Shown here one piece after another: positions 964-25,813 of a stretch of 64,000 nucleotides of DNA. How positions within the stretch are numbered: position 1 is the first letter of the stretch; every line of letters starts with the position of its first letter. The position numbers and the translations under genes are program-made. The stretch is taken from positions 1 to 64,000 of the forward strand of contig CAWEWF010000011.1 of the NCBI GenBank assembly GCA_963812605.1, written 5' to 3'. The notes under the pieces are model-generated. The model searched no databases. It saw only the letters and a program-made list of their open reading frames with translations, and was not told the DNA's origin. The stretch comes from an uncultured Verrucomicrobiae bacterium (GTDB lineage Bacteria > Verrucomicrobiota > Verrucomicrobiia > Palsa-1439).

Positions 964-1860
964 ATGAATCTGTTGTCGAAGATCGCCCTGCTGGTCGGCC
1001 GCAGGAAGTTCGAGGAATTCGCCCAGGCCAACCCCACGCTCCCGGACGACGCGCTCGCCGTCGCCAATACGCTCGACACGTATCCCGTCCGTGGGGCGGT
1101 CGCGCTCGTCGCCGGCTCGCTCGCCCAGGCGGTCGACAATGTGTTGCATGGCACCGAAACAATCGCCGCCGCCGCGACGCACGCGCTCCTGGTCCTCGCC
1201 GCCCTCTGCATCATTTGGGTCCGCCACGCCATCAGCAAACACGACGTGCGCGTCAACGACGTCGTCCAAAAAGCCCGCGCGGTTTCCGGAATCGGCTCGA
1301 AAACCTTGCCCATGATCGTTGCGTTCGGACTTGGCGCGTGGCTGTTTGTTTCCTCTCCGAATTGTAGGGCAAGCGGCCCGCTTGCTGTCGTTTCGGAATC
1401 GGCAAGCGGGCCGCTTGCCCTACAAACGAACACGACGGCGGAAGCGCAAACGAATTCCGCCGCACCTCTCCTCGACAACGCCTTCACCCAACTCGTCACC
1501 GACATTGGCAAGTCCACCAAGTTCAGCAGCGGCGTCGGCATCAATCTTCACGCGAAGGTCGCGCCGCTGCTCTCGCAGGAATTGCCGCTGTTCGGTCGCA
1601 CAGGCACGAACTCCTCCTGGTCCACCGGCCCGTCGCATGCCACCTTCTTTCTCCCCGCCGAGAACGAGGAGCAACTCGGTTGGTCGTTGAGCGGCAGTTG
1701 GAAATCACCGCCGCGCCTCTTGCGCTTCGCGTTGTTCAACGCCAGCGACATCGACTGGACCGTCAACTGGGGCCTGCCCGTCGAGGATTACTACCAGCTC
1801 TTCCGTCACGTCGACTGGAAGGAAAACCGGTTCGGTCTCTCCGTCACGCGGAAATTTTGA
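964..1860 (+). CDS. membrane protein: holin-like N-terminus plus beta-rich C-terminal domain
   Basis: GAGGAG RBS; two hydrophobic segments; ends RFGLSVTRKF; first gene of the operon, where Mu-like phages place lysis genes; contains a 60-bp REP doublet. Confidence 0.6.
   Translation: MNLLSKIALLVGRRKFEEFAQANPTLPDDALAVANTLDTYPVRGAVALVAGSLAQAVDNVLHGTETIAAAATHALLVLAALCIIWVRHAISKHDVRVNDVVQKARAVSGIGSKTLPMIVAFGLGAWLFVSSPNCRASGPLAVVSESASGPLALQTNTTAEAQTNSAAPLLDNAFTQLVTDIGKSTKFSSGVGINLHAKVAPLLSQELPLFGRTGTNSSWSTGPSHATFFLPAENEEQLGWSLSGSWKSPPRLLRFALFNASDIDWTVNWGLPVEDYYQLFRHVDWKENRFGLSVTRKF
1364..1423. repeat. inverted REP doublet (REPIN-like) inside CDS
   Basis: GTAGGGCAAGCGGCCCGCTTG...CAAGCGGGCCGCTTGCCCTAC, 60 bp, read as [21 protein letters not shown]. 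Confidence 0.9.
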
Positions 1861-1878
1861 ACCCGGGAACACTAAGGA

Positions 1879-2244
1879 ATGAATGAACCACACGGAATCA
1901 ACTGGGGCGCGGTCCTGGCCTTCGTCGCGATCCTCGAATTTCTCCGCAGCGTCGTCATCTATATGTTCATCAGCCCGTTGCGCGGCGCGGGCAAGAAGAT
2001 CGACCACCTCGAAAACCAGCTTAACGGCCTTAATTTCACCAACCTGCAAAAAAGCGTCGAGGACCACGAGAAACGGATGCGCACGCTCGAAAGCGACGCG
2101 ATGCCCATCGACGATTTCCAGCGGTACGTGGACACCGCCGAGCGCGATCGCCGCCTGATGAACAAGAAACTCGACATCCTCCTGCAACGCACCGCGCACC
2201 TCCGCGAACCCGAAGATGAAAGGGAACTCTCCGATGAAACCTGA
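1879..2244 (+). CDS. single-TM coiled-coil protein (Mu gp25-like position)
   Basis: N-terminal TM then heptad-rich region; lies before the gp26/gp27-like genes. Confidence 0.6.
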   Translation: MNEPHGINWGAVLAFVAILEFLRSVVIYMFISPLRGAGKKIDHLENQLNGLNFTNLQKSVEDHEKRMRTLESDAMPIDDFQRYVDTAERDRRLMNKKLDILLQRTAHLREPEDERELSDET

Positions 2245-2506
2245 AGAACTCCGCGACCTCCGCGTCGCGCTCCTGCGCGAACTCTACCGCCTGCAACCGC
2301 TCGGCCGCCGCGCCGTCGTGCTCCACAAGCTGGTGGAAGCCGAAGTCGAGTGCACCGTCGCCGAGGTCAACGCCCAGCTCGCGTTCCTGCGCGGCAAACA
2401 TTTCCTCTGCGAGGTCAAAGCCGACGACATCTCCCCCGGCCTCGACCCCTATTGGTTCATCACCACCGAAGGCATGGTCCACTGCGAGGCGAAACGGCTG
2501 GTATGA
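2234..2506 (+). CDS. Mu gp26-like small winged-helix protein
   Basis: RVALLRELY...EVNAQLAFLRGKH...ITTEG pattern; synteny; ATGA overlap with next gene. Confidence 0.65.
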   Translation: MKPEELRDLRVALLRELYRLQPLGRRAVVLHKLVEAEVECTVAEVNAQLAFLRGKHFLCEVKADDISPGLDPYWFITTEGMVHCEAKRLV

Positions 2507-3159
2507 CGAAGCTCTGGCGAAAAAGCCGCAGCAAGATTGCCATGCTGCCGGAAGCGATCCGGATGGAGATCAACCGGAGGATCCGGAATGGTCAGCAGTA
2601 TTTGACAATTGTCCGGTGGCTCTTTGCCCAAAAGGCCAAGAGTGAGATTCCCGATCTCCGGTTGAAAAAGGGCGATCGTTATTCACTGGTTTGGTCGCGT
2701 GATTCAAGAATGCCCCAACGGGTAGAAGAGAACGCGATGCACTCCTTGTGCATGTGGTTCCAGAGCCACTACCGCGAGTGGCTGCGGGAAGAGGTCAGAC
2801 AAGACAAATCGATTCGCGCGCTGAAGGAGATGCAGGAATTGAGCAGCGTCGCCAGCGAAGAAGCCCGGCCCGGGGCGGTGCTCGGCGGCAACATGCTGAT
2901 TCAGTCCATGCTTCTGGAGACCATCAAAGTGCTCCACGAAGAGAATGCCGATCCACGCGAAATCGCCCGCCTGGCCGCTGCGTGGGCGCGACTGAACCAG
3001 GCCGCCACCGAGAACGAAAAGCTGAGACTCCGCACGGAGGATTCCATCGATGCCGGCCTTGCAGCCCTCAAGGCCGAAATCACGAAAGACCCGGAAGCCG
3101 TCGCGTTGTTCAGGAAACTTCACGACATCGTGAAAGGTTCGCCAAAACCAAGCGCATGA
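2503..3159 (+). CDS. Mu gp27-like (DUF3486) terminase small subunit
   Basis: N-terminal RSKIAMLPEAIRMEINRRIRNG motif; directly upstream of large terminase with ATGA overlap. Confidence 0.7.
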   Translation: MTKLWRKSRSKIAMLPEAIRMEINRRIRNGQQYLTIVRWLFAQKAKSEIPDLRLKKGDRYSLVWSRDSRMPQRVEENAMHSLCMWFQSHYREWLREEVRQDKSIRALKEMQELSSVASEEARPGAVLGGNMLIQSMLLETIKVLHEENADPREIARLAAAWARLNQAATENEKLRLRTEDSIDAGLAALKAEITKDPEAVALFRKLHDIVKGSPKPSA

Positions 3160-5336
3160 ACACCGGCTTCCAGCGCATTTACCAGTCCATCGAACTCGAC
3201 GAAATGCCGAAAGTCAGCACACCAAGGGTGAATTCCTTCCGCGAGTTCCTCGAAAAACACGCCCGCGTCAAAACCCCCGACGGCAGCTATCACCCCTACA
3301 CCTTCCAGGGCCGCGAGGCGCTGGAATTTGTGGTGGGGATTATCGACCACATTCTTGGTAGCGCGAGCGTCCCGCTTGCGGTCGTTCCGGCGACCATCAC
3401 CGGCGATTCCGCAACGGCGGCAACCGGGACGGTCGCCCTACCAGCAACATCCCATGTTCCGATCTCCGACGCCCGCCTCACCGCCACCGGCTCGGCGCAA
3501 TGGGGCAAAACCATCCTCGAATTAAACTTTCTCGCCTACGCCGCCGGTATCCAATTTCGCTCCGTCGGCCTGTTCCTGCCCGATGAAAGTCTCGTCGAGG
3601 GCATCGTGGACAGCAAACTTCGTCCCGATGTCCTCGACCAGCAGCCGTGGCTCAATTCCCTGATCACGCTCGGCAAAGCGGAAAACGCGTCGGGCAAAAC
3701 CGTCAACCGCAAGGGTCTCTTCACCTGCACCGATGGCCGGAAAAGATCGCACGGGATGATCCACGGCATGCAGAAAATCCCCACCACCTTCAGCTTCGAC
3801 ATCGTGATCGAGGACGAGAAGGACGACATCCCGCCGACCATGTCGCGCTACCTCACCGCCCGCATGACCGCCAGCGATCTGCGCTTCCGCTTAAGCATCG
3901 GCACCCAGCGCTACGCCGGCGCGGGACAGAACAAGGAGTTCGAGGACGGCACGATGCACCTCGGCCATTTCACCTGTGCGGCATGCGGCCACAAACAAAA
4001 CCCCGAAGAAAACTGGCCGCAAATTTGCCGGCTCGCCATCGACGACGCGCCGCAATGCGATGATCCACAACTGACTTTGGAAGGGAATTTCAAGAGGACA
4101 CAGGCAGGGACGCCTGTGCCACCAGAGCAGATATTTGAGTTCGAGCCTGATGGCAATTTCTACCTCGCCTGTGTCCATTGCGGCGCGGAGCTTGACCGTC
4201 ACGCTCCCGAATTTATCGCGCAGCATCCCGAACGCGAGAAGTTGCAGCATTGGTCCGTCCGTATTTCGCAACTGCTGGTCGCCGCCATCGCCTTGAAACA
4301 GATCGTCGCCGACTGGTGCCACAACGCGGTGCAAGACCCCGACGCCATGAAGACGTTTTACGTCGATCGCCTCGGCCTGCCGCGTTCCAGCAGCCAGCAG
4401 CTCGACCAGAAAATCCTCGACCGCGCCCGCAGCCTCGAACATTTCGACCTGTCACTGTCGCCGCGACGACCGCAGGCAGGGACGCCTGCGCCACCAGTGC
4501 AATATTACGCCGGGCTCGATACTGGCGACAGATGTTGGCTCACCGTTCGCGAAGTGGAAACGACCGCAGGCAGGGACGCCTGCGCCACCATAAAACGCAT
4601 CACGTGGCTGGAGCAACTCAGCGCCGAACGCGTCCGCGCCCGCGTGCCACAGATTTTCGAGTTGCTGGGAATCAGCACGTTGTTCGTGGATGCCGGCCCC
4701 TTGCGCGATCTCGCGCGCGATCTTTGTTTTCTGTTGAATGGCCTCACCGGTTTTCATCCCGCGCCGCTTCCCGATCCCGAGCGCGCCGTCATTCATTTTC
4801 CGGGCGGCCTCACGTGGGACGGCGCGAACCAGCGCTGGCGCGGCCTGCGTTGCGCCGCCGTCGAGTTCACGCTCAAGGAAGGGAAGGGCGTCGTCCACAA
4901 ACTCGGCATCACGCAGGACGGCCTGTTTTATCCCGTCATCGCCTGCAACCGCGACGAGACCATCGAGCGCGTCGTCAACGAACTGCTCACCGCCGCCGAA
5001 AACGTCATCGAAGTCATCGACAGCAAACTGCGCACCACGCCGTCGATCCGCCTGCCCGCGCGCGGGGTCGCCACGCCGAAGATCATCGACACGTTCGACG
5101 CCCACATCGTTTCCGGCAGCCGTCGCGAGCGCGACGAACGCGGCCGGGCCGAGCATTTTGTCGATGGCTGTGAAAACCATTTCCTGCTCAGCAACGCCTA
5201 CAGCGCGCTCGCGGAATCCGTCGGTGAACGCGGTTTCGCGCCTCCTCCCACCGGCGCGATGAATCCCGCCGCCGCCCTCACCCTCGGAAACCGCGGCCGC
5301 TGGGGCGCGCCCACCCTGGCGAGGAGGCCGTGGTGA
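3156..5336 (+). CDS. terminase large subunit, gpA-like
   Basis: Walker A GSAQWGKT, Walker B IVIEDEKD, CxxC pairs (CAACGH, CVHCG), nuclease AGLDTG; four REP-derived segments. Confidence 0.85.
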   Translation: MNTGFQRIYQSIELDEMPKVSTPRVNSFREFLEKHARVKTPDGSYHPYTFQGREALEFVVGIIDHILGSASVPLAVVPATITGDSATAATGTVALPATSHVPISDARLTATGSAQWGKTILELNFLAYAAGIQFRSVGLFLPDESLVEGIVDSKLRPDVLDQQPWLNSLITLGKAENASGKTVNRKGLFTCTDGRKRSHGMIHGMQKIPTTFSFDIVIEDEKDDIPPTMSRYLTARMTASDLRFRLSIGTQRYAGAGQNKEFEDGTMHLGHFTCAACGHKQNPEENWPQICRLAIDDAPQCDDPQLTLEGNFKRTQAGTPVPPEQIFEFEPDGNFYLACVHCGAELDRHAPEFIAQHPEREKLQHWSVRISQLLVAAIALKQIVADWCHNAVQDPDAMKTFYVDRLGLPRSSSQQLDQKILDRARSLEHFDLSLSPRRPQAGTPAPPVQYYAGLDTGDRCWLTVREVETTAGRDACATIKRITWLEQLSAERVRARVPQIFELLGISTLFVDAGPLRDLARDLCFLLNGLTGFHPAPLPDPERAVIHFPGGLTWDGANQRWRGLRCAAVEFTLKEGKGVVHKLGITQDGLFYPVIACNRDETIERVVNELLTAAENVIEVIDSKLRTTPSIRLPARGVATPKIIDTFDAHIVSGSRRERDERGRAEHFVDGCENHFLLSNAYSALAESVGERGFAPPPTGAMNPAAALTLGNRGRWGAPTLARRPW
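3358..3441. repeat. degenerate REP doublet inside terminase
   Basis: GTAGCGCGAGCGTCCCGCTTGCGGTCGTTCCG...GGGACGGTCGCCCTAC, 84 bp; related to 19642-19701 and 22941-23000. Confidence 0.85.
4099..4590 (-). repeat. three GTGG-type REP copies inside terminase (4099-4123, 4467-4496, 4561-4590)
   Basis: CGACCGCAGGCAGGGACGCCTGCGCCACCA family, read as QAGTPVPP, QAGTPAPP and TAGRDACAT; also at 8718, 15501, 15924, 23512, 49815. Confidence 0.9.
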
Positions 5337-5584: not shown

Positions 5585-5980
5585 ATGAAGAAGCACCTGT
5601 TCTCAATCCTGCTCACTGCGAGTGTCCTGGCGACCTACGTCTACGCCCAGGGTGGCTACCCGCTCGGCTCGGACGTTGCGTCGACGATCAGCACGAGCAA
5701 ATTCAACATCGCCGGCGCGAGTTCGACGCTGGTGGCGACCGACAACGCCAACCGCGTGTTCTGCAAGATCATCCAGCGCGGCACCAATGCCATCGATGTT
5801 GGTTACGGCCTCACCGTGACCAACGGCCAGCAGGACTACCTTATCGGCACGGTCGGCAGCACGTGGGACACGAAACGCCCGACGCTCTACAAGGGATCCA
5901 TCTCCGCGATCCTCGACAGCTCGACGGCGAACCTCACTTCCACCGTCACCGTGATCGAAGGCTCGCACCAGAGTTTCTAA
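5585..5980 (+). CDS. small beta-rich protein with signal-peptide-like N-terminus
   Basis: GGAGGA RBS; MKKHLFSILLTASVLATYVYA-Q; between terminase and portal. Confidence 0.75.
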   Translation: MKKHLFSILLTASVLATYVYAQGGYPLGSDVASTISTSKFNIAGASSTLVATDNANRVFCKIIQRGTNAIDVGYGLTVTNGQQDYLIGTVGSTWDTKRPTLYKGSISAILDSSTANLTSTVTVIEGSHQSF

Positions 5981-6005: not shown

Positions 6006-7607
6006 ATGGCCAATCGCCTTCGAAAAACGTGGCGCAAACTTGTCGGTGTAGCCGCCGCCTTCCCGGCGGCAATCGCCGGGGCGTCCGGGACGGACACCGC
6101 TACACGCGGTCTCTTCCAATTCGGCGAGAGCAATCTCGTGGACGCGCCTCGTAGAACCGGCGTCTCGCCCGTTCCTCCGGTAGCCGGCACCATCGTCAAG
6201 GCGCAGGTCGCCGAGCGCTGGATGAACCAGGTCACGCGCGGCCTCACGCCCGAGGCGGTTGACGATTATCTCACCACCGCGATCAGCGGCGACACGTTGA
6301 ACCAGTTCGCGCTTTTCGAGGAGATGGAAGAGAAGTGGCCCGAGCTGCGCCTCGCGCTCTACAAACACAAACTCAAGGCCGCCCGCCGCAATCCGCGCAT
6401 CGTCCCGCCCGATCATCCGCAAAATCCCGCCCTCGCCAAAGAGAAAGCCGACTTCGCGAACTACGTCTTCGCCGCGATGCGCAACTGGCATCGCACCGCC
6501 TTCAATCTCCTCGACGCCGTCGGCAAAGGCATCAGCGGCGCGGAGATCGATTGGCAACCAGGGGAGGTGGCAGCTTCGGGGTCGTTGGTAGGGCGCGCTG
6601 GCCCAGCGCGCCGCGCCGCTGTCGTCATCGCTGAAATGCCCTGGGTGAATTATCGGCACTGGAGTTGGTGGTGGGACCGACCCGAATTGCAATTATTCCC
6701 CGACTTGCGCAACCGCGCCCTGCACATCGACGTGCCCGAGCGCAAGTTCATTATCTTCCATCACCTCTCGAAGAGCGGGCATCCCGCGCGCGCCGCGATG
6801 CTGCGCCCGCTCGCCTGGTATTTCCTCATTTACCTCTACACGATGAAGGACTGGAGCACGCTCGCCGAGACCTTCGGCGTCGATATCGCCCACGCGTTTT
6901 GCAACAAGGACGCCACCCAGGAACAGCGCAACGCCATCCTCCTGCATCTCTCCCGGCTCGCCGCGCGCGCCGGCGTGTTCGATGAGGGAACGGTCGTCAA
7001 TCTCCAGCGCGCCGCCAGCGGCAGCGCGTTCCCGCAGGAAGCGCTCGTGAAATATTGTTCCGAGAAAGCGCTCGAATGTCTCCTCGGCGCGACGCTCGGC
7101 ACACAAGCCGGCACCCACGGCGCGCGTTCCTTGGGATTGGTGCAACAGGACGAAACAGAAGAGATGGTGGACTGGACCTGCCTCCTCTTCGCGGGAACGA
7201 TGACCGGCACCGCGTTGCGGTGGCTGATGGATTTCAATTTCGCCGATCCCACCGACAATCCCGTGATGGAATTGCCCGGTGCCAGCCGCCGCGACATCGC
7301 CGCCCTCGCCAACGTCGTCAACACCCTGGTCAACCTCGGCCTCCGCGTCCCCGAATCCTGGGCCCACGCCCAGTTCGACATCCCGCAGCCCGGCACGACC
7401 ACCGAGCGTCTTTTAACGCCGAGCCAAACCGGCAGCGCGGGCCCCGTCGATACCGATACATCTGACGTTCCGCTTAACGGATCTGTGGAACGCGCTCTCG
7501 AAGCCATGCGCCTCAAGGCCGTCGCCGCAGGCCGCGACCCGGAATCCATCGACCGCGAGAAGCTCATCCTTGCGGAACTCGTCACCGGCCACACGAAAGG
7601 GACCTGA
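6006..7607 (+). CDS. Mu gp29-like portal protein (DUF935)
   Basis: ALFEEMEEK, LLDAVGKGISGAEIDW, LLGATLGT, SLGLVQQD, LVNLGLRVPESWAH motifs; REPs at 6151-6173 and 6581-6613. Confidence 0.9.
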   Translation: MANRLRKTWRKLVGVAAAFPAAIAGASGTDTATRGLFQFGESNLVDAPRRTGVSPVPPVAGTIVKAQVAERWMNQVTRGLTPEAVDDYLTTAISGDTLNQFALFEEMEEKWPELRLALYKHKLKAARRNPRIVPPDHPQNPALAKEKADFANYVFAAMRNWHRTAFNLLDAVGKGISGAEIDWQPGEVAASGSLVGRAGPARRAAVVIAEMPWVNYRHWSWWWDRPELQLFPDLRNRALHIDVPERKFIIFHHLSKSGHPARAAMLRPLAWYFLIYLYTMKDWSTLAETFGVDIAHAFCNKDATQEQRNAILLHLSRLAARAGVFDEGTVVNLQRAASGSAFPQEALVKYCSEKALECLLGATLGTQAGTHGARSLGLVQQDETEEMVDWTCLLFAGTMTGTALRWLMDFNFADPTDNPVMELPGASRRDIAALANVVNTLVNLGLRVPESWAHAQFDIPQPGTTTERLLTPSQTGSAGPVDTDTSDVPLNGSVERALEAMRLKAVAAGRDPESIDREKLILAELVTGHTKGT

Positions 7608-7853: not shown

Positions 7854-7912
7854 CCATTCGCGGACAGGTTAACCACGCGGGCGAAGATTTGCTGCAAGTG
7901 CTTCGGCCGTAC

Positions 7913-11264: not shown

Positions 11265-11275
11265 AACATAAAAAT

Positions 11276-12456: not shown

Positions 12457-12468
12457 AAACGTGCTTTC

Positions 12469-19340: not shown

Positions 19341-19892
19341 ATGACACCGCACTGTCCATACTTCCCGAACAACCAGCCGCGCATCGATGCGCTCCTGGCG
19401 CAGCTCGCCGCGTGGGAAGGCACGCGCTGGCGGCACGCGGGCGCGCGACCCAACGACATGCGCTGTGGCATCAGTGGTGATTGCCTGTTTTGGGTTCACG
19501 CGTTCAAGGCCATCGGCGCGCTGCCGGCAAAGTTGGAGATCCCGGACTATCGCCTGCACGAAGCCAGCGCCGACGAAATGCAGACGCTCCGTCGTTGCAT
19601 CGAAGCAACCGGCCGCGCATTGCTGACGTGGGCGCGGCCTGGTAGCGCGAGCGTCCCGCTTGCGGTCGTTCCGAAGATGGCAAGCGGGACGCTCGCCCTA
19701 CAAAATTTTGCGATCGGCGACGTGCTGCTCTTCAAGAACGGCACCAGCGGCGCCCACTGCGGCCTCGCAGTCAAGGAATCGCCGCTCCACTTCGTCCACC
19801 TCACCGGCAACGGCCTGCTCGAAGAGCCGTTCCACCAGTCCCATTACATCGCCGCGCTGGCATACGTGTATCGACTGTTGGAGGACGCGTGA
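19341..19892 (+). CDS. tail-associated NlpC/P60 peptidase
   Basis: WEGTRWRH, GDC, GDVLLF, HCGL, FVH motifs; 60-bp REP doublet at 19642-19701. Confidence 0.85.
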   Translation: MTPHCPYFPNNQPRIDALLAQLAAWEGTRWRHAGARPNDMRCGISGDCLFWVHAFKAIGALPAKLEIPDYRLHEASADEMQTLRRCIEATGRALLTWARPGSASVPLAVVPKMASGTLALQNFAIGDVLLFKNGTSGAHCGLAVKESPLHFVHLTGNGLLEEPFHQSHYIAALAYVYRLLEDA

Positions 19893-19980: not shown

Positions 19981-22925
19981 ATGGGTTTTCTCGGCGGCTC
20001 CAACGCAGGTGTTAACTCGAACCGGCGCGCGGTCACGCAATCGCCTGTCGCTTCCAACATTCTCGGCACACCCTGGCCGACGCTGTGGGGCCTGCGCGAC
20101 TTGAACGGGACCGTCATCGCCTGGACGAATCACCGATTCAGCAACGCGGGCTCTTCCGGCAAAGGCGGTGGCCAGGTTTCCTCCGGCGAGAAGGATTACC
20201 GCACGTTCGCGCTCGGCTTGTGCATCGGGCCGGTGGATCGCATCACGCAAATCTGGTACGACAATGAGTTGATCTGGGAAGGCAATGTTGGCGTAGCCTC
20301 CGCGGCAACCGTCGCCACGGCCACGGTCGGTGTCGGCGGCGTCGTTCTTACCGACAACGTTGCGCGCGGGACGATCACGTTCTATTTCGGGTTGGACACA
20401 CAGACCCAAGACCCGGTGCTCGCTCAATTCATTCCCGACGTGCCGTTCTACCGCGGCATGTGCTACGCAGTGTTCCACGGGCCCCGTAGTGGCTCTCGGG
20501 GCTTTCGCCTGGGCAACGCGGACACACTCGCGCAGGTCGCGCTGTACGTGGAGCGCATCCCGAAGACATTTGCGGGAATCTCGTTCACGGCCAGCGTCGA
20601 GGAGAATCCCGGCAACGCGTCGAACGAATTGCAACCCATCACCATTATGGCTAGACGCGTCCGGCTTTCACGGGCACGAGCGATGTGGAGTACTCGCTGC
20701 TGGCCCGCGAGCAGATCGGTTCCAATTCACAACTGAACGTCGCGTGGGCTTCCGAGACGGGCAGTGACACAACCGGCTCGGCGCTCATCACCAACGGCAC
20801 TCCTTTCGCTGTCGGCACGCTCGGTTTGATGGTCACGCTGTCGTGGGGCTCGAACGCATCGCCGCCACTGGAGACCGTCCTGGTCGCCATCTGGGAGATC
20901 TTCCTTACCAGCGCCGTCAGCGCCATCGGCGGCGCGAACGTCGCGAGCATCATCTACGAGCTGCTTACCAGTAGCGTGCACGGCGTCGCGCTGGATGCTG
21001 CGGTCCTCGACATGCCCGCGTTCCAGAACGCCGCCGCCGCCGTGACACAGATGGGCCTTTCCTGGGCGGTCAAACAAAAGGGCGATGCGCGCACGCTCAT
21101 CGAGGACATCCTGAAGAGCGTCCAGGGCGCGCTCGTCATCAGCAACGGCGCCATCGGGCCGCGCCTGCTCACCGGCGGTACGGTGGCGCTGACGCTTGAA
21201 CCAGATGACATCGTCGGCCTCAAGCAACGCCCCGGTTGCTGGTACGAGGTTCCGCAATACGCGACCGTCAAGTACGCGGACATCAATCGCAAGTTCCACG
21301 ACACCATTCTCCCGCTGCCAGGCGCGGGAGATTTTGGCGACGACGAAAAGACAATGGAGATCGCGTTGCCGATGGTCACCGACAACGGCGTGGCGCGCTT
21401 GATCGGCTCGCGGCTGCGCACGCTGGAGGCTCTCCCAAAGAATCCCGACACCATTCTCTGCGGTCGCGGCGCGTTTCAACTCCAGTTCGGCGACGTGCTT
21501 TTGATCAACGATGCCGCGCGCGGCTTCGACCCGACCTTGCCGATGATCATCATCGCCATCCGCGAGCACGGCGCGGGCGATGAAGTGATCGAGATCGATG
21601 TCGTGCCCGACGTGTTCAGCCCGTTGCCGGCAACAACGGCAGTCGTCGGCGGCACAAACGGGCCAGGACAAGGCGCTTCAGGAACGCCCATTGACCCGAT
21701 CTCGCTGCAGGAGCTTGTCGAGTTGCCATTCGATTTCGCCCCGGACGGCTCGAAACAGTTCACCTTGTTCGCCGCGCGTCCCGATCCCGACGTGCAGGGC
21801 ATGACGCTCTACGCGTCCACCGAGAACCCGCCCGTCGATTACAACGGCGTGGACGATTCTGCTCCCTTTCACGCGGGCGGCACGTTCGTCGATGCGAGCC
21901 TTCCAAAATTCACGATGGATCGCGAAGCCTACATCGACTTCACGCAGGGCAGCGACGACATCGAGGCGTTCTCGTCGCTCTCGGACAACGATTGGTTTGG
22001 ATATCAAATGCTCGTGCTCGTTGGCGCTGGCATCAACGCAGGACTCTACGCGGCGCGCGAGTTGGTGTTTCTCGGCGGCATAAGCTGGCGGCTACGAGGA
22101 ATCTTTGGGCCGCTATCAGACACGCCAGTCCCCACGCCAAATCCCGGCGATCCCGTGTTCGTCTTCGCTGTCCGCCCGCTTTATAATCTGGCTGGCCAGC
22201 CATCGTGGGTGATCAATTCGCTCCTGACGTTCAAAGGGATTCCTTTCGGCAGTAGAATCTCCCCGACGCTGGCGCAAACGGTCGCCACCGGCCTCACGAT
22301 CCTTTCGCGCGCCGCGTGCCCGCGCCCCGCGCAGAATCTCAACGCCAACGGTCGCGGCGGAATTGCCTCGCCGTTCTATAGTGGCGCGGGCGGCTCGCCC
22401 GCGAGTGATATTAACCTGGCGTGGGACCTGTGCAATCGCGCGTCGGGTTTCGGCGCGGAGACCATCCCTTGCGAGTTTGATCCATCCGTCGCCACGGAGA
22501 TCGCGACGTGCGCCATCGAGATTTGGGTCGCTGGAACGCTCGTGCGCACCGACGCGGCCAATGTCCGCGCCGCCGTCGCGACCGCGGTGGCCACCGCAAC
22601 CAGCGCCCTGCAATTCGATGTCGCTTCGGTCGCCGGATTACAGCCCGGCGACCGCATCAGTGTCGTCCACGGCGCGGCGCACGAATACTTCGGGCGTATC
22701 GCCTCGATCAGTGGCCTGACGATCACGCTCGTCTCGCCGATCGCGATTCCGCCCGCGCTGGGCGACACCGTGAATTGCTACGAATCCGTCGGCTACATCT
22801 ACACCGCCGCCAACAACGTCGCCGACAACGGCAGCCTCGCCGCCGCCGTGGACATCAAGGTCTACCCAATCTTAAACGGCCTGCGCGCCCTGCGCCCGGC
22901 AGAAATCCTGGTGACAAAGATATGA
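19981..22925 (+). CDS. large tail tip/host-specificity protein, split by apparent frameshift(s) at ~20636-20668
   Basis: N part: PTLWG, ALGLCIGPVDRITQIW, PFYRG; C part: ANVASIIYELLT, LQFGDV; the two ORFs form one typical tail protein. Confidence 0.75.
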
Positions 22926-23000: not shown

Positions 23001-23013
23001 GAGGCAGAACATC

Positions 23014-23481
23014 ATGAGCGTCCTCTCCAACGGCACCGAAGATCTCCAGGGCCAGAACCTCACGCCGGCAGCCGCGTATGCTGTGGCCAACACCGCTTTC
23101 CAAAAAATCGCACTGATGTGTCTCCTCGACAAGGACGTGCCATTTTACGGCCTGCCGCGCGACGGCGCGATTCGCGGCACATCGCAGATCGCCATCGAAC
23201 GTCTCATCACCGCCGTCGAGATTCGCGCCGAAGGGTCCGCGCCCGTTGGCAGTTCCCTGATCGTGCAACTGATCGTCGGCGGCGTGCTGCAGTCGCAACA
23301 GTACGCGCTTCCCGCCGCCAGCGCCTACGCCCTGGTCGCCGTCATCAATGACGGCAACGGCGGCGCCTCCGGCTCGGGTCTCGTCGTCCCCGCCAACACG
23401 ACGCTGGCCGTCCAGATCACCAGCGGCAACCAGGCCGTCGATGTCGTCGTCACTCCCAAAACCCAACTGAGGATTCTCTGA
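23014..23481 (+). CDS. beta-rich hypothetical tail accessory protein
   Basis: 155-aa ORF, same codon style, 2 nt from the next gene. Confidence 0.7.
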   Translation: MSVLSNGTEDLQGQNLTPAAAYAVANTAFQKIALMCLLDKDVPFYGLPRDGAIRGTSQIAIERLITAVEIRAEGSAPVGSSLIVQLIVGGVLQSQQYALPAASAYALVAVINDGNGGASGSGLVVPANTTLAVQITSGNQAVDVVVTPKTQLRIL

Positions 23482-23483
23482 CC

Positions 23484-25427
23484 ATGAAACGCACTTTAAT
23501 TCTCCTTTCACTGGTGGCGCAGGCGTCCCTGCCTGCGGTCGTCCGCGCCGGCAACGTCTACCCCGACCGCGTGATTGTCGGCGTCGCCACCGGCGAAGTT
23601 GACGAAACGCAGTACAGCACCAACGACGTTTCGCTCACCGTCACCAATCTGCCCGGCGGCGGTCGTCGCGCCATCCTTGGGATCAGCGGCAGCGCTTCCA
23701 AAGAAACCACCAACGCCGCCCTCGACAAGCTCCGCCTCAACGACGGCGGCTCGCTGACGAACGTTCCTTCGCCGGCAGGCATGGTCACCAACAATCAGCG
23801 CAATGTAAGTCTGGGATTTCCTCCCGACCTGTGGGTCTGGCCAACGTTCGTGGATGCCGACGACAATTTACAATTCTTCATCGGGGGACTCACCAACGCG
23901 ATCCCGCTCGCGCCGAACCCGATACTAGTGGGCAATGCGAGTTGGTTTTTCCGCGACGGCAGCATGATTGAGGGAGCGGACGGTGTGTTCACCATCGCCA
24001 ACACGATCAACATCAATCCCACCAACGGCTTCGGGCTAACCAAGACAACCGACCTCAGGACGGCGCTTGCCAATACCTTCGTCTCTGTGGCCTCCGTATT
24101 GGCGAGCAATGGACTGGTATATGCGCCGGAAGAGGCGATCACGCCGTCAGCCACCACCAATATAGTCGTCACCATTGCCACGAATGGCACCAGCGGCCTG
24201 GCTCTCTTCGTCATGCAGGCCACCAATACGACGCTGACCGCATTCACCACGCCGACGGCGATCTCGATCACCAACAGCGGCATCTGGACGGTGCCTTCCA
24301 GCGGCAACTTCAACGATGGGTTCTACAAGTACCGCAACGGCAAGCACTGGCTCCTTTTCACCGGCAACGACACGATGGTTTATGTCGCGTCCTCGACCAA
24401 CGGCATCGGCGGTCCGTACGGCATGGCCGGCGCCTTTACCGGCCTGACCAACGCGACTCTCTCGGCAATTGAGGGTCCATCCATTTTCGATATCGCGCAG
24501 GCCAACGGGACCACCAACAGCTATTTGATCTGCGCCGCCGCGTTCGCGCCCTCGCGCCAGGAAGAGCGCATGGGCTGGTCGGTCACGACCAATGATTGGA
24601 CCACGTTCACCACGACAAACCAGTGGGCATCCTTTTCGGCGCTCGTGCCGGTCAACGCCTCGCTCTTAATCAACCATTGCACTCCATTCCACGTGGAATC
24701 GATGACCGCGATGAAGGCCCTGCTGGCGCGCCTCTTTAGTGGACGTTACCCGGCCACGCCCATTCCGAAGTCGATCTCCTACACCGGCAGCTTCGGCCTG
24801 GATGTGCCGCAATTCGGGCTCCAGGACCCTATTTTCCAGCGATGGTCCGGCATGACTGTCTACACGAACGCTGGCGTCGGCTTGGTCGCCGGCAGCGACA
24901 TCAAGTTCATCATGACCACCAACGGCAACTTCTACGCCGGCGGATTCGGCCAGACCGAACTGAATCCCGATCCGCCGGCCGAGTTCAACCCCAACGAGCG
25001 CTTCTGGATGATGAGCAACCCGAACGCCAACGGCGATTCGTACTTTTGGTTCCGAGTCCTGACCGGCAGCGGAGTCGTGTTCGGCATTGGCAATCACAAC
25101 GGCACGGGTTTCCTGGCGGAAGAAGGGGCCGCGCCGATTCAATTCTGGGTCAACGCCAACTCCGGCAGTTCGACGCCCTTCAGCGGCGCGACAATCACTT
25201 TCTCCGTGGACCAGGCCTCGGCCACCAGCCAGGTGCCGTTTGATGTGGAAGGCACGTTGACGGAGAAGGGGCATCCGGTGATTACGAACGGAGTGCCACT
25301 GGGAAGTTCACTGTCACAACGGTCCTCCATCACCAACGCACCCGCCGCCGCCGTTTCCTCGCCAACCGCGTGGGCGGACATCATCGGCACCAACGGCCAG
25401 CACTACGTTGTGCCGTTATACCAATAA
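23484..25427 (+). CDS. fibre/adhesin-like protein with signal-like N-terminus and possible GH43/32-like propeller segment
   Basis: T/N/G-rich; NDGFYKYRNGKHWLLF, ASSTNGIGGPY, IEGPSIF, SVTTNDWTTF; ends NGQHYVVPLY; REP at 23512-23541. Confidence 0.6.
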   Translation: MKRTLILLSLVAQASLPAVVRAGNVYPDRVIVGVATGEVDETQYSTNDVSLTVTNLPGGGRRAILGISGSASKETTNAALDKLRLNDGGSLTNVPSPAGMVTNNQRNVSLGFPPDLWVWPTFVDADDNLQFFIGGLTNAIPLAPNPILVGNASWFFRDGSMIEGADGVFTIANTININPTNGFGLTKTTDLRTALANTFVSVASVLASNGLVYAPEEAITPSATTNIVVTIATNGTSGLALFVMQATNTTLTAFTTPTAISITNSGIWTVPSSGNFNDGFYKYRNGKHWLLFTGNDTMVYVASSTNGIGGPYGMAGAFTGLTNATLSAIEGPSIFDIAQANGTTNSYLICAAAFAPSRQEERMGWSVTTNDWTTFTTTNQWASFSALVPVNASLLINHCTPFHVESMTAMKALLARLFSGRYPATPIPKSISYTGSFGLDVPQFGLQDPIFQRWSGMTVYTNAGVGLVAGSDIKFIMTTNGNFYAGGFGQTELNPDPPAEFNPNERFWMMSNPNANGDSYFWFRVLTGSGVVFGIGNHNGTGFLAEEGAAPIQFWVNANSGSSTPFSGATITFSVDQASATSQVPFDVEGTLTEKGHPVITNGVPLGSSLSQRSSITNAPAAAVSSPTAWADIIGTNGQHYVVPLYQ

Positions 25428-25441
25428 CCCCGAAAGGAACC

Positions 25442-25813
25442 ATGAATCGAAAGATGAAACTCTCCGCCATCGCCGCCTCCATCGTCGCCGGCATCACGGC
25501 CATTGCCTGCGCCTCCCTGAGCACCGGGCCGGTTGGATCCGGCACAACTTCGGCCGGCGTTCCCCCCACGCCGCAGGCCCCGCTGATCTCAAACATCGGC
25601 GTGACATCGATGACGGTATCGTGGGTCGGCGGCACACCTACCGCGAGCAATTCCGCCACCGTGTTCTATCTCGTGCAGATGTCCGCCACCAATCAATCGA
25701 ACTTCGCGACCGTCGCCTCCAACGATGTCACCATCACCAGCGTCACGATCTCCAACCTGACACCGTCCACCACCTATTTCTTCCGCATTGTCGCCGGCGA
25801 TGGAAAACCGTAG
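25442..25813 (+). CDS. secreted fibronectin type III domain protein
   Basis: AAAGGA RBS; hydrophobic leader; TSMTVSW...YLVQ...ISNLTPSTTYFFRIVA FN3 signature. Confidence 0.85.
   Translation: MNRKMKLSAIAASIVAGITAIACASLSTGPVGSGTTSAGVPPTPQAPLISNIGVTSMTVSWVGGTPTASNSATVFYLVQMSATNQSNFATVASNDVTITSVTISNLTPSTTYFFRIVAGDGKP

What the first reader, a model, noticed from the sequence alone, without database searches (positions are those of the whole stretch)
964..25813. Stand-alone Mu-head/short-tail morphogenesis operon: candidate new gene transfer agent or domesticated virion
Seen: about 24 co-oriented, tightly coupled genes covering terminase, portal, protease, capsid, connectors, tube, chaperones, tape measure, hub, NlpC/P60 and fibres, bounded by a host-type MORN gene and an IS. 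No Mu A/B transposase, integrase, repressor, late activator, replication gene or clear endolysin was recognised. Established: Mu-like phages package host DNA at their ends; RcGTA is a head-tail cluster with a short tape measure and DUF2163-NlpC/P60-large tail protein order, with regulators and lysis genes elsewhere. Inference: core genes stay open despite a heavy load of host repeats, which fits long residence under selection. I know of no described GTA in this probable Verrucomicrobiota lineage, but cannot verify that.
Basis: partly seen in the sequence, partly recalled or inferred. Interest (0 to 1): 0.92.

Follow-up and report, generated by a model that had tools for sequence, protein, structure and literature searches.

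The report
Domesticated Mu-like virion gene cluster
A 25-kb block of phage head and tail genes, with no genes for phage replication or lysogeny, has been passed down and kept intact within a genus of uncultured soil Verrucomicrobia, which makes it a good candidate for a new, independently evolved gene transfer agent.

Summary
Window 964-25813 carries 25 co-oriented virion genes of the Mu-like siphovirus type: TerS gp27, TerL, Mu portal, protease, capsid, gp36, neck, tube, frameshifting chaperones, a 361-aa tape measure, Dit, hub, NlpC/P60, a J-like protein and fibres. A MORN gene lies upstream and an IS1595 downstream. No transposase, integrase, repressor, activator, endolysin or Mu F gene was found.

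The window starts at a contig end, so absence upstream cannot be judged here. Four relatives with 10-18 kb of contig upstream of g01 also show no early genes.

- Eleven of 18 genomes of the genus carry the collinear cluster.
- One more holds a partial copy at a contig end, and three keep deletion scars.
- Flanks change one side at a time.
- Host and cluster trees share 6 of 8 splits.
- Head-gene dS matches host dS, and dN/dS is 0.03-0.39.
- Six palindrome insertions specific to this genome all preserve the reading frame.

This is a vertically inherited prophage under purifying selection. The GTA-like function is inferred, not shown. Points against: repeated losses, a frameshifted J gene here, a hypervariable TerS with many solo paralogs, and no sequence link to RcGTA.

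The parts
3..662 (-). MORN-repeat protein. Upstream flank, cut by the contig end.
   Evidence: Pfam PF02493 2.2e-14. Orthologs lie upstream of the cluster in G012, G006 and G005. The window is C11:1-64000.
964..1860 (+). g01, the first conserved gene of the cluster. It has a helical N-terminal part, a variable linker and a conserved C-terminal domain. Function unknown; a lysis or envelope role is a guess.
   Evidence: No family hit. Conserved in 7 genomes at 68-92% identity in the alignment, with an in-frame insert specific to G000. Its N-terminus survives in the deletion scars of G007 and G014. The AlphaFold model was unusable, pLDDT 41.
1879..2244 (+). g02, 121 aa, with an N-terminal hydrophobic segment and a coiled coil. 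Spanin- or holin-like by eye only.
   Evidence: No family hit apart from a weak coiled-coil match. Conserved in relatives at 51-97%.
2216..2506 (+). g03, about 90 aa, unknown. Relatives start at the Met at residue 7.
   Evidence: Alignment A6. No family hit. The model was unusable, pLDDT 43.
2503..3159 (+). gp27-type small terminase subunit (DUF3486). Hypervariable between species.
   Evidence: PF11985 3.7e-6 and phrog_426 6.9e-7. Identity between species is 41-88%, and sister species G005 and G002 share only 46%. dS 2.3-2.6 against 0.4-0.6 for neighbouring genes.
3156..5336 (+). Large terminase subunit.
   Evidence: phrog_675 7.2e-31 and a weak GpA_ATPase match. dN/dS 0.12-0.17. Three in-frame palindrome inserts.
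5585..5980 (+). g06, a small protein with a signal-peptide-like N-terminus. Unknown function.
   Evidence: No family hit. No match in G009 or G013; 43-87% identity in the relatives that have it.
6006..7607 (+). Mu-type portal protein.
   Evidence: PF06074 1.3e-55. Exactly one copy in each of the 11 cluster-bearing genomes and none in the other 7.
7617..8395 (-). Antisense two-gene cassette (78 aa at 7617-7853 and 160 aa at 7913-8395). It sits where Mu-like phages carry gene F.
   Evidence: 81-86% aa identity without stops in G002 and G005. Absent from the G012 and G006 spacers. No Pfam or PADLOC hit.
8466..9719 (+). Mu-like head protease / scaffold (gpI type).
   Evidence: PF10123 2.2e-5, just below the cut-off. 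dN/dS 0.12-0.15.
9776..10141 (+). g09, a small head protein, scaffold-like.
   Evidence: phrog_673 6.4e-4. It occupies the position of the 'head scaffolding protein' of JBD67. dN/dS 0.04-0.18.
10193..11212 (+). Major capsid protein.
   Evidence: phrog_1005 5e-42. 87-98% identity in 6 relatives. dN/dS 0.03-0.13. Closest cultured phages share 26-30%.
11276..11752 (+). Mu gp36-type head completion protein.
   Evidence: PF07030 3.9e-11.
11913..12575 (+). Neck / tail completion protein. The last ~60 aa in G000 have no counterpart in relatives.
   Evidence: phrog_26 8.8e-8. Relatives align to residues 1-161 only.
12572..13105 (+). g13, a conserved connector-region protein of unknown family.
   Evidence: 83-98% identity in relatives and dN/dS 0.07-0.11. 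No family hit.
13146..13931 (+). Tail tube protein.
   Evidence: phrog_807 5.1e-13. dN/dS 0.08-0.22.
13993..14648 (+). Tail assembly chaperones G (13993-14424) and T (14364-14648, in the -1 frame). A slippery A9 run lies at 14324-14332.
   Evidence: The overlap and frames are read from the sequence. A run of A7-A9 is conserved at the same place in 9 of 9 genomes.
14666..15751 (+). Tape measure protein, short at 361 aa.
   Evidence: Seven PHROG families matched, five of them annotated tape measure. Length is 338-359 aa in 6 relatives. Comparators: 999 aa at the same position in G209 and 1004 aa in phage QH16.
15748..17619 (+). Distal tail protein (Dit) with a variable C-terminal extension.
   Evidence: The profile of 6 orthologs matches JBD30 chain 8rk3_U at 6.3e-17 and 8vjh_B 'distal tail protein' at 1.3e-6. 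phrog_1082.
17726..19219 (+). Baseplate hub protein.
   Evidence: The profile matches 8vjh_D 'baseplate hub 1 protein' at 3.5e-5. phrog_778.
19341..19892 (+). NlpC/P60-type cell-wall peptidase of the tail tip.
   Evidence: The profile matches Spr/MepS at 1.4e-5 to 4.7e-5. Cys48, His139 and His153 are invariant in 7 species; calling them the catalytic triad is my inference.
19981..22925 (+). J-like central tail fibre / host-specificity protein. In G000 it is split into two ORFs (19981-20736 and 20685-22925) by one frameshift between 20622 and 20667.
   Evidence: Both ORFs hit phrog_1101, at profile positions 15-207 and 221-780, and PF13550 is matched. It is a single ORF of 972-1103 aa in 5 of 5 relatives. 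The laid contigs that were listed do not cover the site.
23014..25813 (+). g23 (155 aa, conserved), g24 (647 aa, fibre-like, variable between species) and g25 (FN3-domain protein).
   Evidence: g23 shares 42-74% identity with relatives. Only the first ~75 aa of g24 are shared. g25 hits fn3 at 8e-10. Relatives carry different large ORFs at this position.
25880..28262 (-). IS1595-family insertion sequence with a 273-aa passenger ORF. It marks the right edge of the cluster in G000.
   Evidence: NF033547 6.3e-58. 26-nt inverted ends (pair I18). Single copy in the genome. One soil-metagenome contig joins 25850 to 28404 without it.
28331..33144 (.). Downstream flank: a 414-aa coiled-coil protein (-) and class II ribonucleotide reductase (30106-33144, +).
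   Evidence: PF02867 2.6e-135. Both genes follow the cluster in G012 and G006. In 7 other genomes the reductase is instead preceded directly by the ortholog of C9:82305-83738.

Best explanation
This is the virion-morphogenesis half of a Mu-like siphovirus (Casadabanvirus-like). It lost its transposition, regulation and lysis genes and its F gene, and its tape measure is shortened to a third. It has since been inherited vertically as a chromosomal locus through an uncultured genus of Verrucomicrobiia, under purifying selection.

Shown:
- The gene content.
- The absence of early genes beside it in relatives with long upstream contig.
- Vertical descent.
- Purifying selection on every gene.
- Repeated loss by deletion.

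Inferred:
- It still assembles DNA-filled tailed particles. Terminase, portal, protease, capsid, the slippery site of the chaperones and the candidate catalytic residues of the peptidase are all conserved.
- With no way to replicate or excise, it would fill those heads from the chromosome in situ. It would therefore act as a gene-transfer-agent-like element, with regulators and lysis genes elsewhere.
- Whether packaging is random (a classic GTA) or starts at sites read by the gp27 small terminase (as in lateral transduction) is open.

My confidence is about 0.85 for the evolutionary part. The 0.55 given below is for the GTA-like function.
For: Gene content:
- Pfam, PHROG, NCBIfam and PDB-profile hits cover the cluster.
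- The closest cultured phages are Mu-like siphoviruses at 26-30% identity.
- Annotated maps of JBD67 and QH16 show what is missing here.

No early genes:
- None of the ORFs scanned in window 1-30 kb hit an early, lysogeny or endolysin family.
- The four relatives with 10-18 kb of contig upstream of g01 (G012, G005, G009, G013) carry surface proteins, an XhoI restriction-modification pair or host orthologs there. G006 has about 3 kb of unscanned small ORFs between its MORN ortholog and g01, and the G016 contig ends at g03.
- There is one Mu-type portal per cluster-bearing genome and none elsewhere.

Distribution:
- The portal is found in 10 of 17 other genomes of the genus.
- The capsid family is found in 15 of 401 genomes sampled from the class: G000, the same 10, and 4 outside the genus.

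Vertical descent:
- g01 to g23 are collinear in the six relatives fetched, as far as each contig reaches. G016 ends at g03, g06 gave no match in G009 and G013, and in G005 g18 and g22 gave no match.
- There are three flank configurations, each differing from the next on one side only.
- G007 and G014 are sisters of cluster-bearing G009 and G013. At the same locus they keep a g01-g23 fusion ORF plus fibre genes.
- G010 keeps g01-g03 fused to g12 and then the tail genes.
- G008 has the J C-terminus, g23 and fibres at a contig end.
- The host tree (RpoB+RNR) and the cluster tree (9 head-to-tube proteins) share 6 of 8 internal splits on 11 taxa. None of 10,000 label shuffles reached 6; the maximum was 5.
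- Head-gene dS is 0.34-0.62 against RNR 0.43-0.52 in the close clade. It is 0.54-1.6 against 0.74-0.92 in the others.

Selection:
- NG86 dN/dS is 0.03-0.39 for all 23 genes against G012 and G006.
- The A7-A9 slippery run is conserved in 9 of 9 genomes.
- Cys and two His residues of the peptidase are invariant in 7 of 7.
- Six G000-specific palindrome insertions inside g01, TerL (three), portal and protease are all multiples of 3 and free of stops.

Derived state:
- G209, from another genus of the family, keeps a Mu F-like gene and a 999-aa ORF at the tape-measure position. The focal genus has no F and a tape measure of 338-361 aa.
Against: - No particle, packaging, expression or transfer data exist. 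No RNA run holds the stretch, and only low-depth contigs could be laid.
- The cluster is dispensable. There are at least three independent deletions (G007, G014, G010), and no trace in G003, G015 or G017. G017 is 59% complete.
- G000's own J-like gene is frameshifted.
- The portal is read in two frames in G005, G009 and G001. g18 is also split or interrupted by stops in G009, G016 and G001. These may be assembly errors or decay.
- TerS has saturated dS and an allele pattern that conflicts with the host tree. The whole tail-tip module of G005 is replaced, at 26-32% identity. So parts of the locus exchange horizontally.
- The protease/scaffold gene is retained, so nothing suggests a reduced head. 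At 25 kb the cluster could fit into a Mu-sized head. The criterion 'cannot package itself' is therefore not implied by the sequence.
- Purifying selection and co-divergence would also fit a non-GTA function.
- The Pfam probes for Mu transposase failed on the JBD67 control. Genome-wide absence of a transposase therefore rests on local context and tblastn only.
Confidence: 0.55

Rival explanations
1. It is a packaging machine driven by sequence-specific small terminases. The cluster supplies heads and tails. The cluster's own gp27 and the 1-6 solo gp27 paralogs per genome each start headful packaging at their own site. Particles would then carry the cluster, or the variable (often defence) islands next to the solo genes. 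That would be a lateral-transduction or helper-satellite arrangement rather than random GTA packaging.
For: - gp27-like genes occur in 16 of 18 genomes of the genus, with up to 6 per genome.
- In 15 loci examined they sit singly at conserved host loci beside variable small ORFs. In G000 the neighbours are a Panacea antitoxin, an N6 methylase, an ORF6N protein and a 986-aa protein.
- The cluster's TerS is the fastest-changing gene and its alleles do not follow the host tree.
- Recalled, not from a call: in Mu and many pac phages the recognition site lies in or near the left end or the terS gene.
Against: - Solo paralogs persist in genomes without the cluster: G007, G014, G015 and G003. They therefore do not depend on it.
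- Several paralogs carry stop codons.
- DUF3486 proteins away from a terminase have no shown function.
- No pac site has been identified, and no integrase or replication genes were seen beside the paralogs (by BLAST grouping only; the neighbours were not scanned against Pfam).
Confidence: 0.15
2. It is a defective prophage remnant with no present function, decaying slowly and being lost lineage by lineage.
For: - Three deletion derivatives, and three genomes with no trace.
- A frameshift in J in G000, and frameshifts in the portal and g18 in some relatives.
- An IS and many palindromes have invaded the G000 copy.
Against: - All 23 genes show dN/dS of 0.03-0.39 over dS of 0.2-2.6. Head genes match the host's dS, so the ORFs have stayed open for as long as these species have diverged.
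- The G000 terminal branch is not longer than those of its sisters.
- Palindrome insertions inside genes are all in frame.
- The slippery site and the candidate catalytic residues are conserved.
Confidence: 0.12
3. It produces PBSX-like killer particles or serves some other host-beneficial particle function, such as competition or lysis-linked release. Gene transfer would be incidental.
For: The comparative evidence is the same as for the best explanation: a complete head and tail set, vertical descent and purifying selection. The fibre genes are highly variable between species, and fibres are retained intact even after the cluster is deleted in G007 and G014.
Against: - No adjacent repressor or lysis module, such as PBSX-type elements carry (that feature is recalled, not from a call), was found.
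- Conservation of terminase and portal shows that DNA packaging is maintained. A pure killing function would not obviously require it.
Confidence: 0.08
4. It is the late region of a still autonomous phage whose early genes lie elsewhere or in unassembled sequence.
For: - The window starts at a contig end, and the genome is 90% complete in 15 contigs.
- In G016 and G011 the assembly also breaks at or inside the upstream end of the cluster.
Against: - In G012, G005, G009 and G013, 10-18 kb of contig upstream of g01 show host orthologs and no phage early genes.
- Flanks change one side at a time, and deletion scars lie at the same locus in sister species.
- tblastn with 11 JBD67 early proteins gave only two weak AAA+ matches in G000.
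- The Mu-transpos_C hits in the genus belong to 720-728-aa genes. The one in G008 lies beside glmS, Tn7-like by my reading.
Confidence: 0.04

Closest known systems
Gene transfer agents / viriforms (RcGTA and CcGTA of Alphaproteobacteria, BaGTA of Bartonella, VSH-1 of Brachyspira, Dd1 of Desulfovibrio, VTA of Methanococcus voltae)
   Same: - A head-and-tail gene cluster without replication, integration or lysogeny genes.
- Vertical transmission with the host genome and purifying selection.
- Patchy loss among relatives, a short tail module, and lysis and regulators not in the cluster.

The criteria come from the abstract of PMC9662315. The list of known hosts comes from a passage of bioRxiv 10.1101/2024.11.15.623857.
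   Different: - The ancestry is different: a Mu-type head with a gp27 terminase, against an HK97/lambda-like head in RcGTA. The latter point is recalled, not from a call.
- The host phylum is different. Three full-text searches found no paper reporting a GTA in Verrucomicrobia.
- Nothing suggests a reduced head.
- TerS is hypervariable and multi-copy.
- None of the functional criteria (random packaging, subpopulation induction, transfer) has been tested.
Mu-like transposable siphoviruses: Casadabanvirus/Beetrevirus (JBD30, JBD67, D3112-like), and the Mu-head phage Stenotrophomonas vB_SmaS_QH16
   Same: - The gene order is the same: small proteins, gp27 TerS, TerL, Mu portal, protease, scaffold, capsid, gp36, neck, tube, G/T chaperones, tape measure, Dit, hub, tail-tip proteins.
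- The Dit profile matches JBD30 chain 8rk3_U at 6e-17 (entry 8RK3 is cited in PMC11445458, of which I saw the search listing and the start of the abstract).
   Different: - Identity is only 22-30%.
- There is no transposase A/B, Gam, GemA, repressor or late activator.
- There is no holin or endolysin, and no F / DNA-pilot gene.
- The tape measure is 361 aa, against 1004 aa in QH16.
- The locus is fixed in the chromosome and co-diverges with the host.
PBSX-type defective prophages of Bacillus (recalled, no call)
   Same: A chromosomally fixed, genus-conserved phage-like element that makes particles carrying host DNA and cannot propagate.
   Different: PBSX keeps its own repressor, sigma-like activator and lysis genes beside the structural genes, and has a contractile tail. 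None of these features is seen here.
Lateral transduction by in-situ packaging prophages, and TerS-encoding phage satellites (SaPI/PICI) (recalled, no call)
   Same: A pac-type small terminase could start headful packaging from an unexcised chromosomal site. Extra terS-like genes are scattered in the genome beside variable islands.
   Different: There is no replication-competent helper, no integrase or primase beside the solo gp27 genes, and no packaging data.

Membership tests
Gene transfer agent (viriform), criteria from the abstract of PMC9662315 | Transmitted vertically as part of the cellular genome | tested here: met
   - One-side-at-a-time flank changes.
- Deletion scars at the same locus in sister species.
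- 6 of 8 tree splits shared, with 0 of 10,000 shuffles as good.
- Head-gene dS equals host dS.
Gene transfer agent (viriform) | Encodes particles that resemble tailed-phage virions | tested here: inconclusive
   A full head and non-contractile tail gene set is present and conserved. Particles themselves cannot be observed with these tools, and the J-like gene is frameshifted in this genome.
Gene transfer agent (viriform) | Encapsidates at best part of its own genome; packages host DNA without preference | not testable with these tools
   No particle DNA data exist. The sequence gives no sign of a reduced head. The only runs found are low-depth soil metagenome contigs.
Gene transfer agent (viriform) | Induced in a small subpopulation under host control | not testable with these tools
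   No RNA holder was listed. No regulator was identified in or beside the cluster.
Gene transfer agent (viriform) | Lacks replication, integration and lysogeny modules (cannot propagate itself) | tested here: met
   No such family was hit in any ORF scanned in window 1-30 kb. In G012, G005, G009 and G013, 10-18 kb of upstream contig show none. Caveat: the Pfam transposase probes failed on the positive control.
RcGTA-like GTAs (alphaproteobacterial type I) | Homology of head and tail genes to the RcGTA cluster | tested here: not met
   - The head is of Mu type (PF06074, PF11985, PF07030, PF10123).
- No DUF2163- or DUF2460-type Pfam hit for g18 or g19 at E <= 0.01.
- PDB profile searches at E <= 1 returned JBD30, 8vjh and Spr/MepS chains only.
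- That RcGTA chains are in the PDB copy is recalled, not checked.
Mu-like transposable phage | DDE transposase A with ATPase B, and repressor/Ner-type control | tested here: not met
   - None lies beside the cluster in the contigs that extend upstream.
- tblastn with JBD67 A, B and 9 other early proteins gave only two weak AAA+ matches in G000.
- PF09299 was found in 3 of 18 genomes, on 720-728-aa genes (one hit is a fragment). The one in G008 lies next to glmS.
Mu-like transposable phage | Mu-type head module (gp27, TerL, portal, protease I, gp36) | tested here: met
Mu-like transposable phage | Protein F (minor head / DNA pilot) after the portal; late activator Mor/C; lysis cassette before the terminase | tested here: not met
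   - No F remnant in 8 spacers.
- An F-like gene is present in out-genus relative G209 (PF04233 4e-4).
- No Mor, endolysin or holin hit.
- All of these are present in JBD67 and QH16.
Phage satellite (PICI/SaPI-like) | Lacks structural genes and hijacks a helper's | tested here: not met
   The cluster is itself the structural gene set.

The most novel reading that the evidence does not exclude
A domesticated Mu-like capsid-and-tail factory works together with a family of solo gp27 small-terminase genes. These are parked at conserved chromosomal hot spots next to variable defence islands. Each gp27 would start headful packaging at its own site, so the cell would export chosen chromosomal neighbourhoods (defence islands, or the cluster itself) to relatives. 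This would be a host-owned, multi-origin lateral-transduction system, and the first GTA-like element in the PVC superphylum.
Probability: 0.1. Interest if true: 0.92.

Novelty: new variant of a known kind. Interest (0 to 1): 0.74.

Why it matters
The passage read lists characterised GTAs only from Rhodobacterales, Caulobacter, Bartonella, Desulfovibrio, Brachyspira and Methanococcus voltae. The same passage says that finding new ones by computation is hard, because they look like defective prophages.

Here the comparative evidence separates the two cases more clearly than usual:
- the same locus across a genus;
- host-like synonymous divergence;
- strong purifying selection on every gene;
- in-frame survival of repeat insertions;
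- datable deletion scars.

If particles are confirmed, three things would follow. It would be an independent domestication of a Mu-type phage. It would be the first GTA-like element in Verrucomicrobiota, which are abundant soil and peat bacteria. And it would offer a natural series of intact, head-less and fully deleted variants for asking what such elements are selected for.

The hypervariable, multi-copy small terminase also makes the question 'what decides which DNA a domesticated capsid carries' directly testable.

Tried and rejected
- **Active Mu-like prophage with early genes just off the contig.** Rejected from relatives with long contigs.
- **The C9:84-97 kb segment upstream as the missing early region.** Rejected. 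By eye it holds host-type genes: LOG-like, dapF-like, an HTH protein and a REP-associated transposase-like gene. These were not scanned against a family library.
- **RcGTA-type tail.** No support.
- **Mu F remnant between portal and protease.** None at E < 1 in 8 spacers.
- **Pfam PF02914 and PF09299 as probes for a Mu transposase.** Both failed to hit the annotated transposase of JBD67. Their negative results therefore carry little weight.
- **Function of g01, g02, g03, g06, g13, g23, g24 and the antisense pair.** No hit in Pfam, PHROGs, NCBIfam or PADLOC where scanned. The ESM Atlas gave no usable hit for g01.
- **AlphaFold models of g01 and g03.** From 7- and 6-row alignments they had mean pLDDT of 41 and 43. 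No fold search was run on them.
- **PDB sequence searches with the capsid profile and the tube protein.** No hit at E <= 1.
- **Sequencing runs.** No RNA holder was listed. Four soil-metagenome runs from one study hold 8-32% of the sampled words, as Logan contigs only, at depth 2-6. They give no coverage comparison, and none of the contig pieces listed lies on the J frameshift site (most pieces were not shown).
- **IMG/VR.** It gave 4 contigs of 18.6-26.4 kb. Three were mapped and are the same cluster, with no extra genes in the parts fetched. The fourth (57% capsid identity) matches the G050 relative.
- **Not used.** Complex prediction, the search of protein representatives, the search for homologous proteins and the listing of cluster members; no question here needed them. 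Supplementary files of papers were not consulted.
- **The search of earlier findings.** Closed.

Full report
**What is there**

The window is bases 1-64000 of contig C11 of a 4.17-Mb, 15-contig assembly rated 90% complete. From 964 to 25813 there are 25 co-oriented ORFs, several with 4-nt overlaps (g03/g04, g04/g05, g12/g13, g17/g18).

Family searches gave these assignments:
- gp27-type small terminase;
- large terminase (phrog_675, 7e-31);
- Mu portal (PF06074, 1e-55);
- Mu-like protease I (2e-5, just under Pfam's cut-off);
- a small scaffold-like protein;
- major capsid (phrog_1005, 5e-42);
- gp36;
- a neck protein;
- tube;
- a 361-aa tape measure;
- three tail-tip proteins.

Profiles built from orthologs of 6-7 species sharpened the tail tip.
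- g18 matches the distal tail protein of phage JBD30 (8rk3_U, 6e-17) and 8vjh_B.
- g19 matches a baseplate hub (8vjh_D, 3.5e-5).
- g20 matches the NlpC/P60 peptidases Spr/MepS (about 1e-5). One Cys and two His residues are invariant.
- Entry 8RK3 is cited in the JBD30 paper PMC11445458, of which I saw the search listing and the start of the abstract.

g15 and g16 overlap in the 0 and -1 frames. An A9 run lies at 14324-14332, and a run of A7-A9 stands at the same place in all 9 genomes looked at. This is the classic chaperone frameshift site.

The closest cultured phages are Mu-like siphoviruses at 26-30% identity for capsid and portal and 22-25% for tail-tip proteins. The annotated maps of JBD67 and QH16 have the same gene order.

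Against those maps the cluster lacks:
- the whole early region;
- the late activator;
- holin and endolysin;
- the F / DNA-pilot gene after the portal.

Its tape measure is about a third as long.

- A MORN gene lies upstream. It is cut by the contig end.
- An IS1595 element lies downstream, with 26-nt inverted ends and one copy in the genome.
- One soil-metagenome contig joins 25850 to 28404 without the IS, so the insertion is polymorphic.

**Defects and additions in this copy**

- The J-like gene is split by one frameshift between 20622 and 20667. It is one ORF of 972-1103 aa in 5 of 5 relatives. The contig pieces listed do not cover the site, so I cannot say whether the frameshift is real.
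- Between portal and protease, on the opposite strand, lie two ORFs of 78 and 160 aa. They are 81-86% identical and free of stops in G002 and G005. They are missing from G012 and G006.
- Short GC-rich palindromes are 15-40 times denser in the cluster than in the genome. Perfect hairpins run at 0.32 per kb, against 0.05-0.08 outside.
- Six palindrome insertions lie inside g01, TerL (three), portal and protease. They are absent from most or all relatives. They measure 21-84 nt, every one a multiple of three.

**Is it stand-alone?**

This window alone cannot tell, because only 963 bases precede g01. Relatives can.

The portal was found in 13 of 61 related genomes, G000 included. That is 10 of the 17 other species of the genus, one genome of another genus of the family, and one of another family.

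I fetched 60 kb around the portal in six species.
- g01 to g23 are collinear in the six, as far as each contig reaches. G016's contig ends at g03, g06 gave no match in G009 and G013, and in G005 g18 and g22 gave no match.
- Four of them have 10-18 kb of contig upstream of g01. In G012 and G005 the stretch next to g01 holds an HYR surface protein, an XhoI restriction-modification pair and a 1628-aa repeat protein, not phage early genes. In G009 and G013 it holds mostly orthologs of host genes and was not scanned against a family library.
- G006 has about 3 kb of unscanned small ORFs between its MORN ortholog and g01.
- Each cluster-bearing genome has exactly one Mu-type portal, and the other seven have none.

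The Pfam models for Mu transposase were poor probes. Neither hits the annotated JBD67 transposase. PF09299 did find genes of 720-728 aa in G008 and G010 and a fragment in G011. The G008 copy lies beside glmS with a 556-aa partner, which I read as Tn7-like. tblastn with 11 JBD67 early proteins found only two weak AAA+ matches in G000.

**Vertical descent**

There are three flank configurations.
1. G009 and G013: upstream, orthologs of G000 C14:808-816k, which lies next to rpoB; downstream, orthologs of C2:173-189k. G016 shares the downstream side.
2. G005: upstream, orthologs of C9:84-94k plus MORN; downstream, orthologs of C2:173-189k.
3. G000, G012 and G006: MORN upstream (with C9:84-94k orthologs beyond it in G006; in G000, C9 is a separate contig); downstream, the 414-aa gene and ribonucleotide reductase.

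Each configuration differs from the next on one side only. That is what rearrangements around a resident locus give. Independent insertions would not.

In 7 other genomes the reductase is directly preceded by the ortholog of C9:82305-83738. So the block carrying the cluster moved there in the ancestor of the G000 clade.

The strongest evidence comes from genomes that 'lack' the cluster.
- G007 is the sister of G009. At the same locus, between the same flanks, it has an ORF that joins the first 42 residues of g01 to the C-terminal part of g23. Fibre genes follow it.
- G014 is the sister of G013. It has a similar fusion with other breakpoints (g01 1-175, g23 57-155).
- G010 has g01, g02 and the first 30 residues of g03 joined to the end of g12, followed by g13-g19. 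The head module is deleted and the tape measure is frameshifted.
- G008 has the end of J, g23 and fibres at a contig end.

The tally for the 18 genomes of the genus is:
- 11 with the cluster;
- 1 partial at a contig end;
- 3 deletion derivatives;
- 3 without trace, one of them only 59% complete.

A host tree (RpoB plus the reductase, 2275 columns, 18 genomes) and a cluster tree (nine head-to-tube proteins, 2872 columns, 12 rows) share 6 of 8 internal splits on their 11 common taxa. The two conflicts lie inside the closest clade, where host support is 76-84. None of 10,000 label shuffles reached 6 shared splits; the maximum was 5. Related genomes are not independent, so this is not a probability.

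Synonymous divergence tells the same story.
- Against the three close species, head genes have dS 0.34-0.62 and the reductase 0.43-0.52.
- Against the seven more distant species, head genes have 0.54-1.6 and the reductase 0.74-0.92.

**Selection**

Nei-Gojobori dN/dS against G012 and G006 is 0.03-0.39 for all 23 genes (capsid 0.03-0.04). It stays at or below 0.5 against the distant species, except where G005 has a replaced module.

dS is near saturation for the distant pairs, and the method is simple, so the values are rough. The direction is not in doubt.

The in-frame palindrome insertions show that selection for open frames also acted on the G000 lineage itself. G000's terminal branch is no longer than those of its sisters.

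**What does not fit a simple picture**

- TerS has dS 2.3-2.6. It shares 41-50% identity between most species and 46% between the sister species G005 and G002. Yet it shares 67% between G000 and G004 and 88% between G012 and G006. Its alleles have been exchanged.
- Tail genes g17-g23 have dS 0.7-1.4. G005 carries a different tail-tip module, at 26-32% identity.
- gp27-like genes are a family. There are 1-6 per genome in 16 of 18 genomes, including genomes without the cluster.
- In 15 loci they stand alone at conserved host sites beside variable small ORFs. In G000 (C10:210313-211002) the neighbours are a Panacea antitoxin, a DNA methylase, an ORF6N protein and a 986-aa protein.

**Comparison outside the genus**

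The capsid family was found in 15 of 401 genomes sampled from the class. Four of these lie outside the genus.

One of them is G209, from another genus of the same family. It has a related cluster that still carries a Mu F-like gene (PF04233 4e-4, below the cut-off) and a 999-aa ORF at the tape-measure position. Loss of F and shortening of the tape measure are therefore derived in the focal genus.

**Interpretation**

The evolutionary reading is well supported: an old, chromosomally fixed, selectively maintained virion gene set of Mu-like origin that cannot propagate itself.

The functional reading is inference. It rests on which genes are conserved: terminase, portal, protease, capsid, the frameshift site and the peptidase residues. 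From that I infer that the cluster makes DNA-filled particles which carry chromosomal DNA, as a GTA does.

The sequence does not suggest a small head. The multi-copy, fast-changing small terminase raises the alternative of site-directed packaging.

**Literature**

- Three full-text searches found no report of a GTA in this phylum: 'gene transfer agent' + Verrucomicrobia (39 papers, 15 listed); gene transfer agents / Mu-like / domesticated (110 papers, 20 listed); and GTA + Verrucomicrobiota + prophage (2 papers).
- PMC6172770: passages read. It notes many non-viral reads in peat viromes and mentions GTAs as one possible cause.
- GTA criteria come from the abstract of PMC9662315.
- The list of known GTA hosts comes from one passage of bioRxiv 10.1101/2024.11.15.623857.
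- Record titles returned name uncultured Verrucomicrobia / Verrucomicrobiia MAGs.

Noticed in passing
G000 C10:210313-211002 (L002:14314-15006) and 14 loci in relatives (L133-L146): A family of solo gp27-like (DUF3486, small-terminase-type) genes. There are 1-6 per genome in 16 of 18 genomes of the genus. They stand alone at conserved host loci (for example beside msbA-like, DUF374 and SLT genes) next to variable, often defence-type genes. They also occur in genomes that lost the virion cluster.
   Followed up: partly
window 7617-7853 (-) and 7913-8395 (-): An antisense pair of genes (78 and 160 aa) sits between portal and protease, at the place of Mu gene F. They are 81-86% identical without stops in G002 and G005 and absent in G012 and G006. 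No Pfam or PADLOC hit. The pair could be a toxin-antitoxin or a moron.
   Followed up: partly
window 1362-1425, 3356-3443, 4466-4497, 4560-4591, 6576-6613, 8717-8748, 15924-15954, 19640-19701, 22939-23005, 23511-23542: Several families of GC-rich palindromes are 15-40 times enriched in the cluster relative to the genome. Six sit inside genes as in-frame insertions specific to G000. A gene that looks like a REP-associated tyrosine transposase lies at C9:94811-95863, probably just upstream of the window; I read it by eye and did not scan it.
   Followed up: partly
window 25880-28262: An IS1595-family element with a 273-aa passenger ORF of no known family. It is single-copy in the genome. A soil-metagenome contig from one run lacks it, joining 25850 to 28404 with 5 other letters between.
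   Followed up: yes
window 11227-11275, 11867-11915, 13947-13994: A repeated ~42-nt unit stands immediately before the start codons of g11, g12 and g15. It combines a hairpin (CCCTCTCCCC..GGGGGAGAGGG) with a purine-rich stretch. It may be a shared translation-initiation or processing signal.
   Followed up: no
L025-L027 (G005), joined coordinates 18709-27710: In G005 the whole module from tape measure to J is replaced by a homologous but very distant one (26-32% identity). The head genes remain 65-90% identical. This is a module swap inside an otherwise vertically inherited locus.
   Followed up: no
L148 (G008:C76) 8209-13375 and L149 (G010:C63) 625-6766: A Tn7-like element: an HTH protein, a 720-728-aa protein with a Mu-transpos_C domain and a 522-556-aa partner. 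It lies beside glmS in G008 and about 7 kb upstream of the head-less cluster remnant in G010.
   Followed up: partly
L027:2709-4537 (G005): An XhoI-type restriction endonuclease and an N6/N4 methylase lie in the variable stretch just upstream of g01. The stretch between MORN and g01 behaves as a variable-gene hot spot: about 300 bp in G000, 3 kb in G006 and 9-10 kb in G012 and G005.
   Followed up: partly
G000 C9:92484-93332: A diaminopimelate-epimerase-like gene appears split into two ORFs. This was read by eye from the translations and could be an assembly indel. It bears on whether the J frameshift is real.
   Followed up: no
L127 (G007) 11029-15751; L131 (G014) 82-2187: After the cluster was deleted, the fibre-like genes downstream of g23 remain as long open ORFs of 803, 651 and 701 aa. 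This could mean the deletions are recent, or that these genes have a use of their own.
   Followed up: no
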